Virus record (IMG/VR): IMGVR_UViG_2778261249_000001
Location: 1-6,136 of that record
Length of the DNA stretch: 6,136 bases
Source of the DNA: a virus
Lineage: Duplodnaviria > Heunggongvirae > Uroviricota > Caudoviricetes
Reading direction: 5' to 3' (one strand)
Made by a program: the position numbers and the translations under genes. The notes under the pieces are model-generated. The model was given only the letters and a program-made list of their open reading frames with translations. It ran no database searches and had not been told where the DNA came from. Below are positions 5,029 to 6,136 of the stretch, piece by piece. Position 1 is the stretch's first letter, and each line of letters begins with the position of its first letter.

Positions 5029-5688
5029 ATGAAAATGAAATGGTATGAACTGGCTAGATCCAGAATGAAAGAGCTCGGCATAACTCAAGAGAAGTTAGCT
5101 GAAGAGCTTGGTATGACGCAGGGTGGAATTGGTCACTGGTTGCGCGGATCTCGTCATCCATCTCTTGACGAGATTGGTGTGGTGTTTAAATACCTTGGTA
5201 TTGATAACGTCTCATTCAACCACGACGGTACATTTTCACCTGTTGGCGAATACTCATCTGCCCCCGTTAAAAAACAATATGAGTACCCTGTTTTTTCTCA
5301 TGTTCAGGCCGGGATGTTCTCGCCTGAGCTTAGAACCTTTACCAAAGGTGATGCGGAGAGATGGGTCAGCACAACCAAAAAAGCCAGTGATTGTGCGTTC
5401 TGGCTTGAAGTTGAAGGTAATTCCATGACCGCGCCAACAGGATCCAAGCCAAGCTTTCCTGACGGGATGTTAATTCTCGTTGACCCTGAGCAGGCTGTTG
5501 AGCCAGGTGATTTCTGCATAGCCAGACTTGGTGGTGACGAGTTTACCTTCAAGAAACTGATCAGGGATAGCGGTCAGGTGTTCCTACAGCCACTAAACCC
5601 GCAATATCCAATGATTCCATGCAATGATAGCTGTTCCGTAGTAGGGAAAGTTATCGCCAGCCAGTGGCCTGAAGAGACATTTAGTTAA
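5029..5688 (+). CDS. cI: CI prophage repressor, 219 aa: non-lambda N-terminal HTH domain fused to a lambda-type S24 autopeptidase/dimerisation C-terminal domain
   Basis: From about residue 84 (nt 5278) to the end, [38 protein letters not shown]…[13 protein letters not shown] matches lambda CI near-identically as I recall it, including the Ala-Gly cleavage site, catalytic Ser (EGNSMT) and Lys (FKKL). The N-terminal 83 aa ([40 protein letters not shown]…) are unrelated to lambda CI. I place the start at ATG 5029 rather than the ORF-track TTG 4987; ATG 5035 is an alternative. Confidence 0.9.
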
Positions 5689-5720
5689 CAGCCTCACAAC
5701 TCTAAAACACACAACAATAA

Positions 5721-5748
5721 CCCGACCTTAGCGTCGGGTTTTCTTTTT
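5721..5748 (+). terminator. Rho-independent terminator immediately after cI
   Basis: Stem CCCGAC (5721-5726) and GTCGGG (5733-5738) with a 6-nt loop, followed by TTTTCTTTTT (5739-5748). Confidence 0.65.
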
Positions 5749-5800
5749 CCAAAATATAAACCCATTAAATACAAAGCGTTATAAAAAACTAATTATATTT

Positions 5801-5840
5801 AGAACATTTTGTATTGACTCGATAAAGTACAAATCGTACT
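5801..5840. promoter_or_regulatory. Candidate OL operator sites overlapping PL
   Basis: AGAACattttGTATT (5801-5815, overlaps the -35) and AGTACaaatcGTACT (5826-5840, overlaps spacer and -10). Centres are 25 bp apart. Same dyad family as the OR candidates. Confidence 0.5.
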
Positions 5841-5842
5841 AT
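5814..5842 (+). promoter_or_regulatory. PL-like promoter for N
   Basis: -35 TTGACT (5814-5819), 17-bp spacer, -10 TACTAT (5837-5842). Predicted start near 5849 (ATCAGCAGG…), which is where the lambda-like N leader sequence begins. Confidence 0.65.
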
Positions 5843-5882
5843 TTAGCCATCAGCAGGATGCACTAACCACCATGAAGGTGAG

Positions 5883-5912
5883 GCTCTTAAAAATTAAGCC
5901 CTGAAGAAGGGC
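5883..5912 (+). promoter_or_regulatory. nutL (boxA and boxB) in the N leader
   Basis: boxA-like GCTCTTAAAAATTAA (5883-5897) followed by the boxB hairpin GCCCTGAAGAAGGGC (5898-5912), matching lambda nutL. Confidence 0.8.
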
Positions 5913-6069
5913 AGCATTCAAAGCAGAAGGCTTTGGTGTGTGTGATACGAAACGAAGCATTGGCCGGAAGTGCGAATCCGGATTAGTTGCCAATGTGCCA
6001 TTGCGGGGTGTTTTCGTTCAGGACTACGACTCCCACACACAACCAAAGCTAACTGACAGGAGAATCCAG

Positions 6070-6136
6070 ATGGATGCACAAACACGCCGCCGCGAACGTC
6101 GCGCAGAGAAACAGGCTCAATGGAAAGCAGCAAATC
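6070..6136 (+). CDS. N: Antitermination protein N, first 22 codons only; gene continues past the right edge
   Basis: ATG 6070 preceded by AGGAG (6058-6062) with 7-nt spacing. Translation MDAQTRRRERRAEKQAQWKAAN matches the lambda N arginine-rich N-terminus (the boxB RNA-binding motif). Confidence 0.9.
   Translation, partial: MDAQTRRRERRAEKQAQWKAAN

What the first reader, a model, noticed from the sequence alone, without database searches (positions are those of the whole stretch)
5801..5842. The same dyad family recurs at PL, supporting the operator assignment
AGTACaaatcGTACT (5826-5840) and AGAACattttGTATT (5801-5815) overlap the spacer/-10 and the -35 of a strong PL-like promoter, with centres 25 bp apart. 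Finding the same half-site at both early promoters, and nowhere else obvious in the window, is what a repressor-binding motif should look like. Only two clear sites are visible at OL against three candidates at OR.
Basis: seen in the sequence. Interest (0 to 1): 0.55.

Follow-up and report, generated by a model that had tools for sequence, protein, structure and literature searches.

The report
Known-type phage repressor operators at PL
The two short palindromes are real and are almost certainly the left-operator sites where this prophage's CI repressor (and Cro) shut off the PL promoter, but the same sites are already annotated in the closely related Shiga-toxin phage VT2-Sakai, and a weaker third site sits upstream, so the finding is correct but ordinary.

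Summary
AGTACaaatcGTACT (5826-5840) and AGAACattttGTATT (5801-5815) lie 25 bp apart. They overlap the -10 and -35 of TTGACT-17-TACTAT, the PL promoter that reads through lambda nutL into a lambda-type N gene.

The motif is far from random:
- A matrix trained only on the three OR sites ranks OL1 first in a 46-kb relative.
- Four of the six window matches with up to two mismatches fall in 3.5% of the window.
- Across 47 distinct natural OL variants the half-site columns are nearly invariant, while spacers and flanks vary freely.

The non-lambda DNA in this region is exactly cro-OR-cI(N-terminal domain) plus a 101-bp OL/PL block. This is a classical immunity cassette.

A third, weaker but conserved dyad, AATACaaagcGTTAT (5768-5782), lies 33 bp upstream.

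None of this is new. CI here is 97% identical to the CI of a Stx1 phage whose six operators are those published for VT2-Sakai, and its helix-turn-helix is identical. Those phages' GenBank records and a 2015 supplementary table list the same six sites as putative operators. Salmonella phage L has the same operator family. I found no report of the cognate CI binding these sites.

The parts
5826..5840 (.). OL1: AGTACaaatcGTACT, a perfect dyad overlapping the PL spacer and the first bases of the -10; centre at -16 from the inferred start
   Evidence: Top score in the 46-kb relative with an OR-trained matrix. Half-sites nearly invariant in 47 haplotypes. Homologous to an annotated putative operator in AP000422 and AP005153.
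5801..5815 (.). OL2: AGAACattttGTATT, overlapping the first bases of the -35; centre at -41
   Evidence: Fifth-ranked hit in 46 kb with an OR-trained matrix. One singleton variant in each half-site among 47 haplotypes, while the 10 bp just upstream are highly variable. AGTACattttGTATT at the same place in phage L.
5768..5782 (.).
   Evidence: Best non-training hit in the window with a matrix built from the four strong sites. Left half invariant and right half with two singleton changes in 47 haplotypes. Homologous to the third annotated putative operator in VT2-Sakai and the Stx1 phage.
5814..5842 (+). PL promoter: TTGACT (5814-5819), 17-bp spacer, TACTAT (5837-5842); inferred start at A5849
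   Evidence: Promoter scan. Homology to lambda resumes at 5848, one base before the position matching the known lambda PL start at record position 35582, the coordinate used.
5898..5912 (+). nutL boxB hairpin GCCCTGAAGAAGGGC in the PL leader
   Evidence: Read directly. Hairpin reported. Lies inside the 95.5% lambda-identical block 5848-6136.
6070..6136 (+). Start of the lambda-type N antiterminator gene (runs off the window)
   Evidence: Pfam N36, E = 3.7e-12. Annotated as N in relatives.
5035..5688 (+). cI repressor: HTH_3 N-terminal domain of VT2-Sakai/phage L type, joined to a Peptidase_S24 C-terminal domain nearly identical to that of lambda CI
   Evidence: Pfam. PDB sequence search against lambda CI 3bdn. 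210 of 217 residues identical to the Stx1-phage CI, with an identical HTH.
5719..5740 (+). Hairpin terminator after cI, just upstream of OL3
   Evidence: Terminator scan. Weak similarity to the lambda terminator region beyond rexB.
4946..4960 (.). OR1: AATACgatatGTACT, overlapping the PR -10
   Evidence: Annotated homologue.
4979..4993 (.). OR2: AATACatcttGTGCA, a weak site 33 bp from OR1 and 26 bp from OR3
   Evidence: Best hit between OR1 and OR3. Conserved. Annotated homologue.
5005..5019 (.). OR3: AGTACagagcGTAAT, overlapping the likely PRM -10
   Evidence: Annotated homologue.
4702..4917 (-). cro: a 71-aa HTH_3 protein whose recognition helix resembles that of CI (TQGAIGHW against TQGGIGHW)
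   Evidence: Pfam. BLASTP of the CI N-terminal domain against Cro, E = 4e-13. One residue different from the Stx1-phage Cro.

Best explanation
The dyads at 5826-5840 and 5801-5815, together with a weaker third dyad at 5768-5782, are the left operator (OL1, OL2, OL3) of a lambdoid prophage in the VT2-Sakai immunity group.

Proposed mechanism:
- Dimers of the prophage CI repressor read the half-sites A(G/A)TAC ... GTA(C/T/A)T through the N-terminal helix-turn-helix.
- Bound at OL1 and OL2, they cover the -10 and -35 of PL. This excludes RNA polymerase and silences the N operon in the lysogen.
- The C-terminal domain is almost lambda's own. Dimers at OL1 and OL2 (25 bp apart, against 24 bp in lambda) should therefore bind cooperatively, and OL could loop to OR 880 bp away.
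- After RecA-stimulated self-cleavage of CI, Cro is expected to use the same sites, because its recognition helix is similar.

Shown here: the sites, their positions on the promoter, their statistical enrichment, their conservation, and their co-inheritance with the CI DNA-binding domain. Inferred only: binding, cooperativity, looping and any function of OL3.
For: - Sequence and promoter geometry. Site centres are at -16, -41 and -74 here, against -17, -41 and -61 in lambda.
- Enrichment: 6 matches against 1.29 expected, with 4 of the 6 in 3.5% of the window (P = 2e-5).
- Cross-prediction: an OR-trained matrix ranks OL1 first and OL2 fifth in 46 kb, and an OL-trained matrix ranks OR1 and OR3 second and third.
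- Selection at OL: among 47 distinct OL haplotypes, 5 of 30 half-site columns vary, all as singletons. Among spacer and other columns, 36 of 64 vary, with 204 variant counts (Fisher p = 3e-4).
- Selection at OR: 2 of 30 half-site columns vary against 27 of 79 elsewhere (p = 3e-3).
- Module structure: lambda homology stops at 5746 and resumes at 5848. The non-lambda DNA is the OL/PL block plus cro-OR-cI(N-terminal domain).
- The proteins: CI is HTH_3 plus Peptidase_S24 with a C-terminal domain almost identical to lambda's. Cro shares the recognition helix.
- Close relatives: CI is 97% identical, with an identical HTH, to the Stx1-phage CI. The homologous six sites are annotated as putative operators in AP005153 and AP000422 and are listed in Table S5 of PMC4587872.
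- Distant relatives: phage L has AGTACattttGTATT twice at PL, 25 bp apart, and a repressor HTH of TQGAIGHWLNG. The related epsilon34 paper proposes WTACRAWWTGTAT.
Against: - Nothing here or in the literature I could read shows the cognate CI binding these sites. Published operators for this immunity group are labelled putative or predicted. The only EMSA data I found use lambda CI, not the cognate protein.
- OL2 and OL3 score within reach of background on sequence alone, with 4 and 12 such hits expected per 46 kb. Their support comes from position and conservation.
- The right half-sites of OL1 and OL2 overlap the -10 and -35, so part of their conservation could be due to the promoter.
- Haplotype counts are not independent evolutionary events.
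Confidence: 0.9

Rival explanations
1. OL has only two functional sites, as in phage 933W. The 5768-5782 dyad is a non-functional relic or a chance match, so the first reader's count of two is right.
For: OL3 has 3 mismatches to the consensus, and a score this high is expected about 12 times per 46 kb. Its spacing from OL2 (33 bp) differs from lambda's 20 bp, and the spacing in phage L is different again (30 bp). Two-site OL regions do exist: 933W and Phi24B are described that way.
Against: It is the best non-training hit in the whole window. Its left half is invariant and its right half shows only two singleton changes in 47 haplotypes, while the 5765-5766, 5776-5777 and 5789-5797 positions around it vary in many. 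A homologous site is present and annotated in VT2-Sakai and the Stx1 phage despite about 20% divergence of the region.
Confidence: 0.2
2. The dyads are conserved as promoter architecture (-35, -10, an A/T-rich upstream element) or as a site for a host protein, not as repressor operators.
For: The region is A/T-rich. The right halves of OL2 and OL1 overlap the -35 and -10 hexamers.
Against: The left half-sites and OL3 lie outside the hexamers and are equally conserved, while adjacent A/T-rich positions vary freely. The same dyad recurs at PR and PRM with different promoter sequences. The block is exchanged together with the CI DNA-binding domain while the flanks stay lambda-like, which a host-factor site would not require.
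Confidence: 0.04
3. The two dyads are a chance resemblance to the OR sites.
For: With two mismatches allowed, about 1.3 matches are expected per window, and two such matches do occur in coding sequence.
Against: OL1 is a perfect match with p = 1e-6 per position. The pair sits on a promoter within 1 bp of the lambda register. Clustering gives P = 2e-5. The half-sites are conserved across 47 haplotypes and in phage L.
Confidence: 0.01

Closest known systems
OL/OR operators of Shiga-toxin phage VT2-Sakai and its immunity group (Stx1 converting phage AP005153, Stx2 II, Nil2, 2851, the PA/PST1 phages)
   Same: CI is 210/217 identical with an identical helix-turn-helix, and Cro differs at one residue. 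There are six dyads at homologous positions with the same half-sites: OL1 AGTAC..GTACT, OL2 AGAAC..GTATT, OL3 AATAC..GTT(A/G)T, and OR1-3 likewise. OL spacing is the same 25 and 33 bp.
   Different: - The spacers differ (OL1 aaatc against atatc, OL2 atttt against aaatt), and OL3's right half is GTTAT against GTTGT.
- OL follows cI directly here, whereas the Stx phages carry about 1.5 kb of extra ORFs between them.
- N, nutL and cII here are lambda's own, and the replication genes are an O-like protein plus a primase/helicase.
- The closest full-length relative is a P22-like (Lederbergvirus), non-Stx prophage next to the bio and uvrB genes.
Phage lambda OL1-OL2-OL3 / PL
   Same: OL1 lies over the spacer and -10 and OL2 over the -35, with centres at -16/-41 here and -17/-41 in lambda. 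There are three sites on each side. The CI C-terminal domain is about 98% identical. The PL start, nutL and N are the same.
   Different: - The half-site sequence and the CI N-terminal domain are unrelated.
- OL2-OL3 is 33 bp against 20 bp, and OR1-OR2 is 33 bp against 24 bp.
- OL to OR is 880 bp against 2407 bp, because rexAB is absent.
Salmonella phage L / ST64T immC operators
   Same: The same dyad family occurs: AGTACattttGTATT twice at PL, 25 bp apart, and AATACatttcGTACT at PR. The repressor and Cro HTH are similar. The VT2-Sakai record itself notes similarity to phage L C2.
   Different: The repressor N-terminal domain is only partly identical. The third OL site is differently placed (30 bp) and weaker. 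The host is Salmonella. Whether the two immunities cross-react is not known to me.
Phage 933W / Phi24B OL (two-site left operator)
   Same: It is a lambdoid OL controlling PL.
   Different: Here a conserved third site is present. PMC4587872 explicitly contrasts EDL933 (933W), which has OL1 and OL2 only, with Sakai, which also has OL3.

Membership tests
Lambdoid phage left operator (CI/Cro sites controlling PL) | Repeated dyad-symmetric 15-17-bp sites of one family present at both OR and OL | tested here: met
   Six sites matching A(G/A)TAC-N5-GTA(C/T/A)T. Matrices trained on one side recover the strong sites on the other.
Lambdoid phage left operator (CI/Cro sites controlling PL) | Sites overlap the -35 and -10 of an early promoter that reads through nutL into N | tested here: met
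   TTGACT-17-TACTAT. The nutL boxB and N are lambda-identical. Site centres are at -16 and -41.
Lambdoid phage left operator (CI/Cro sites controlling PL) | Adjacent cI (HTH plus S24 self-cleaving domain), with a divergent cro across OR | tested here: met
   Pfam HTH_3 plus Peptidase_S24 for CI and HTH_3 for Cro. Match to the lambda CI structure.
Lambdoid phage left operator (CI/Cro sites controlling PL) | Operators co-inherited with the repressor's DNA-binding domain (immunity module) | tested here: met
   The non-lambda blocks are 4696-5277 and 5747-5847 only. All 79 loci with the same CI N-terminal domain that retain this region carry the same OL block.
Lambdoid phage left operator (CI/Cro sites controlling PL) | Half-sites under stronger constraint than spacers and flanks | tested here: met
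   5 of 30 against 36 of 64 variable columns at OL (p = 3e-4); 2 of 30 against 27 of 79 at OR (p = 3e-3).
Lambdoid phage left operator (CI/Cro sites controlling PL) | Direct, sequence-specific binding of CI and repression of PL | not testable with these tools
   Needs EMSA or footprinting and reporter assays. I found no such data for the cognate CI of this immunity group.
VT2-Sakai immunity group | CI and Cro DNA-binding regions the same as in the reference phages | tested here: met
   The HTH is identical to the Stx1-phage CI. The N-terminal domain differs at 3 positions outside it. Cro has one change.
VT2-Sakai immunity group | Operator sequences match those published or annotated for the group | tested here: met
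   The half-sites equal those in AP005153, AP000422 and Table S5 of PMC4587872, apart from one base of OL3.
VT2-Sakai immunity group | Homoimmunity in a superinfection test | not testable with these tools
   Requires phage crosses.
933W-type two-site OL | Only two repressor sites at OL | tested here: not met
   There is a conserved third dyad at 5768-5782, and the reference phages of this immunity group are described with an OL3.

The most novel reading that the evidence does not exclude
This repressor carries lambda's own cooperativity and oligomerisation domain, but its sites are spaced differently from lambda's. At OR the lambda-like 25-26 bp spacing falls between OR2 and OR3, while OR1-OR2 is 33 bp. 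At OL it falls between OL1 and OL2, with OL3 33 bp further out. The switch could therefore be wired differently from lambda, for example with cooperative OR2-OR3 occupancy or a different loop geometry over only 880 bp. The shared C-terminal domain could also let this CI form mixed oligomers with lambda CI. That would give cross-talk between heteroimmune prophages; cross-immunity of VT2-Sakai and lambda is attributed to Fattah et al. 2000 in PMC10742460. None of this was tested here.
Probability: 0.15. Interest if true: 0.45.

Novelty: already known. Interest (0 to 1): 0.15.

Why it matters
It matters little beyond correct annotation. The result places this common E. coli prophage in the VT2-Sakai immunity group; the cro-cI-PL-N region is at least 80% covered in 129 of 5,426 complete E. 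coli genomes. That predicts which superinfecting or co-resident Stx phages its repressor would silence.

The comparative data add the first quantitative conservation support, to my knowledge, for operator sites that the literature I could read carries only as putative. They also show that Salmonella phage L shares the operator family. The unusual 33-bp spacings, combined with a lambda-type cooperativity domain, could be a useful natural test of spacing rules for CI cooperativity.

Tried and rejected
- An Rfam scan of the window found nothing at gathering thresholds, so no known RNA element explains the region.
- I tried to read Fattah et al. 2000 (the original operator proposal and cross-immunity tests) and Tyler et al. 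2004. Neither is held, so what I say about them is second-hand, from PMC4587872 and PMC10742460.
- The 'bully phage' preprint and the Stx2 variation preprint had nothing on this immunity type. The Phi24B papers concern the 933W immunity type, not this one.
- I looked for an OR2 candidate 25 bp from OR1, which would mirror OL. There is none: the best hit between OR1 and OR3 is the annotated OR2 at 4979.
- I considered that my first extraction of OL variants was biased, because its regular expression required a perfect OL1. I repeated it using BLAST anchoring that does not depend on the sites, and the result held.
- I did not use the large protein-database searches or structure prediction. The identity of CI and its relatives was already clear.

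Full report
**What the window is.** The window is the early regulatory region of a lambdoid prophage, read with N to the right.
- Genes from right to left: a lambda-type N (6070 onwards, Pfam N36), cI (5035-5688, +), cro (4917-4702, -), a lambda-type cII (4582-4292, -; Pfam Phage_CII), an O-like replication gene and a primase/helicase.
- The 1.5 kb tested (cro to N) is 99.5% identical to Escherichia phage vB_EcoP-720R6, whose record is a P22-like (Lederbergvirus) prophage next to bio and uvrB.
- The cro-cI-PL-N region is at least 80% covered in 129 of 5,426 complete E. coli genomes.

**Check of the observation.**
- AGTACAAATCGTACT is at 5826-5840 and AGAACATTTTGTATT at 5801-5815, with centres 25 bp apart.
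- The promoter scan reports TTGACT (5814-5819), a 17-bp spacer and TACTAT (5837-5842).
- With up to two mismatches to AGTAC-N5-GTACT, the window has six matches against 1.29 expected, and 1 of 200 shuffles reached six.
- Four of the six lie in the OR and OL blocks, which are 3.5% of the window (binomial P = 2e-5). The other two (2677, 3458) are in coding sequence and fit the chance expectation.

**Is it the same motif at both promoters?** I trained a symmetric matrix on the three OR candidates only (OR1 4946-4960, OR2 4979-4993, OR3 5005-5019), ignoring the spacer. I then scanned the whole 46-kb phage record.
- OL1 was the top hit, OL2 fifth and a third OL site tenth.
- The reverse experiment, trained on OL, ranked OR1 and OR3 second and third.
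- Exact score distributions give OL1 p = 1e-6 per position (0.0004 expected in the 382-bp cI-N spacer) and OL2 p = 9e-5 (0.03 expected).
- The strong sites are far beyond chance. The weak ones (OR2, OL3, and to a degree OL2) need other support.

**A third site at OL.** AATACAAAGCGTTAT at 5768-5782 is centred 33 bp upstream of OL2. With a matrix built from the four strong sites, it is the best-scoring non-training position in the entire window and by far the best between cI and OL2. The statement that OL has only two sites is therefore an undercount.

**Conservation.**
- A scan of IMG/VR with the CI N-terminal domain returned 80 loci with an identical domain.
- I extracted the OL and OR regions by BLAST anchoring that does not depend on the sites. 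This gave 47 distinct OL and 32 distinct OR haplotypes.
- At OL, 5 of the 30 half-site columns vary, each in a single haplotype. Of the spacer and other columns, 36 of 64 vary, with 204 variant-haplotype counts (Fisher p = 3e-4).
- At OR, 2 of 30 half-site columns vary against 27 of 79 elsewhere (p = 3e-3).
- Variation piles up just outside the half-sites: 5765-5766, the OL3 spacer at 5776-5777, 5789-5797 between OL3 and OL2, 5819-5822 between the -35 and OL1, and the OL1 spacer at 5832.
- The left half-sites and all of OL3 lie outside the promoter hexamers, so promoter function alone does not explain the pattern.
- Haplotypes are related, so these are not independent events, but the contrast is large.

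**Module structure.** Alignment to lambda shows four lambda-like blocks:
- window 4249-4695 (98% identical: nutR and cII);
- 5278-5682 (94%: the cI C-terminal domain);
- 5711-5746 (the terminator region);
- 5848-6136 (95.5%: the PL start, nutL and N).

The non-lambda DNA is therefore exactly cro, OR and the cI N-terminal domain (4696-5277), plus a 101-bp block holding OL and PL (5747-5847). Homology resumes one base before the position that matches the lambda PL start. This is the classical immunity-cassette arrangement, in which everything that sets repressor specificity is exchanged together. A short promoter block that co-varies with a DNA-binding domain about 500 bp away is hard to explain unless that block holds the domain's binding sites.

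**Geometry against lambda.**
- With the start at A5849, the OL centres are at -16, -41 and -74. Lambda's are at -17, -41 and -61.
- OL2 ends in the TTG of the -35, exactly as lambda OL2 does.
- Spacings here are OL1-OL2 25, OL2-OL3 33, OR1-OR2 33 and OR2-OR3 26 bp. Lambda has 24, 20, 24 and 23 bp.
- OL1 to OR1 is 880 bp here against 2407 bp in lambda, because rexAB is absent.

**The proteins.**
- CI is HTH_3 plus Peptidase_S24.
- Residues 82-216 are almost identical to the lambda CI C-terminal domain in solved structures, while the N-terminal domain is only weakly similar.
- RecA-stimulated self-cleavage, dimerisation and pairwise cooperativity can therefore be inferred from lambda. This is an inference from near-identity, not a test.
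- Cro is a 71-residue HTH_3 protein whose helix-turn-helix resembles that of CI (TQGAIGHW against [15 protein letters not shown] = 4e-13). That fits both proteins using the same sites.

**What is already known.**
- CI here is 210/217 identical to the CI of the Stx1 converting phage AP005153, with an identical helix-turn-helix, and Cro differs at one residue.
- That record and the VT2-Sakai record AP000422 annotate three 'putative operator' features at OR and three at OL, plus PL, PR and PRM. The sequences under those features are the homologues of the six sites here.
- Table S5 of Yin et al. 2015 (PMC4587872) lists the same six 17-mers for the Sakai-type Stx2a phages, citing Fattah et al. 2000. 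That paper also contrasts EDL933 (OL1 and OL2 only) with Sakai (which also has OL3).
- Two later papers use these VT2-Sakai operator sequences, and one measures binding of lambda CI to them (PMC9803871, PMC10742460).
- I found no footprint or gel shift with the cognate CI, and I could not obtain Fattah et al. 2000.

**A deeper comparator.**
- The OL block also matches Salmonella phage L and ST64T at about 81% identity.
- Phage L has AGTACattttGTATT twice at PL, 25 bp apart, and AATACatttcGTACT, AATACaatatGTGTG and AATACatctcGTAAT at OR. Its repressor helix-turn-helix reads TQGAIGHWLNG.
- The epsilon34 genome paper names L, VT2-Sa and Nil2 as the closest relatives of its repressor N-terminal domain. 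It proposes WTACRAWWTGTAT as the operator, the same TAC-N5-GTA core (PMC2629481).

**Verdict.**
- The most likely mechanism is steric exclusion of RNA polymerase from PL by CI dimers bound cooperatively at OL1 and OL2, with OL3 as a weaker auxiliary site. Cro would use the same sites after induction.
- The step from conserved, correctly placed dyads to actual binding is inferred.
- The sites are already on record as putative operators for this immunity group, so the finding is not novel.
- The only mildly unusual feature is the pair of 33-bp spacings (OR1-OR2 and OL2-OL3) combined with a lambda-type cooperativity domain.

Noticed in passing
window 5035-5688, junction near 5277/5278: CI is a natural chimera. 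[quoted passage not shown] The C-terminal domain is about 98% identical in protein (94% in DNA) to lambda CI. The DNA homology breakpoint falls in the linker.
   Followed up: yes
window 4975-4980 (A-run between OR1 and OR2): The A-run varies from 5 to 8 bases among otherwise near-identical relatives. The OR1-OR2 distance therefore ranges from 32 to 35 bp in nature, which suggests loose constraint on this spacing.
   Followed up: partly
window 3678-3763: There are four iteron-like copies of TGTCACC-N5-6-GTGACA at 20-24 bp intervals inside the O-like replication gene, next to an A/T-rich stretch with a repeated TTTCTTTTGT. This is probably the replication origin.
   Followed up: partly
window 5016-5031: A likely PRM -10 (AATAAT, 5017-5022) lies 6-7 bp upstream of an in-frame ATG at 5029, two codons before the annotated start at 5035. 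The cI mRNA may therefore be leaderless, as in lambda. The idea rests on reading the sequence and on the PRM annotation in AP000422.
   Followed up: no
window 5689-5767; loci L045, L001, L029: No rexAB or other gene lies between cI and OL here: a hairpin terminator at 5719-5740 is followed directly by OL3. Some relatives with the same CI carry 1-1.5 kb inserts at this point, with OL1 at +1842, +2199 or +2305 from the cI start instead of +791.
   Followed up: partly
L084 (Salmonella phage L cII-101) 1660-1740 and 2470-2550: Phage L and ST64T carry the same operator family and the same 25-bp OL1-OL2 spacing as this E. coli prophage. I saw no features labelled as operators in the stretch of the record I fetched.
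   Followed up: partly
window 4662-4676 (- strand) and 4318-4345: The lambda nutR boxB (GCCCTGAAAAAGGGC on the - strand) and a GC-rich hairpin with a T-run at the end of cII (a position like lambda's oop terminator) lie within the 98% lambda-identical block. Rfam reported nothing.
   Followed up: no
Table S5 of PMC4587872: The published table labels the three PL-side sites as OR1-3 and the three cro/cI-side sites as OL1-3. This is swapped relative to the GenBank annotations of VT2-Sakai and to their positions.
   Followed up: yes
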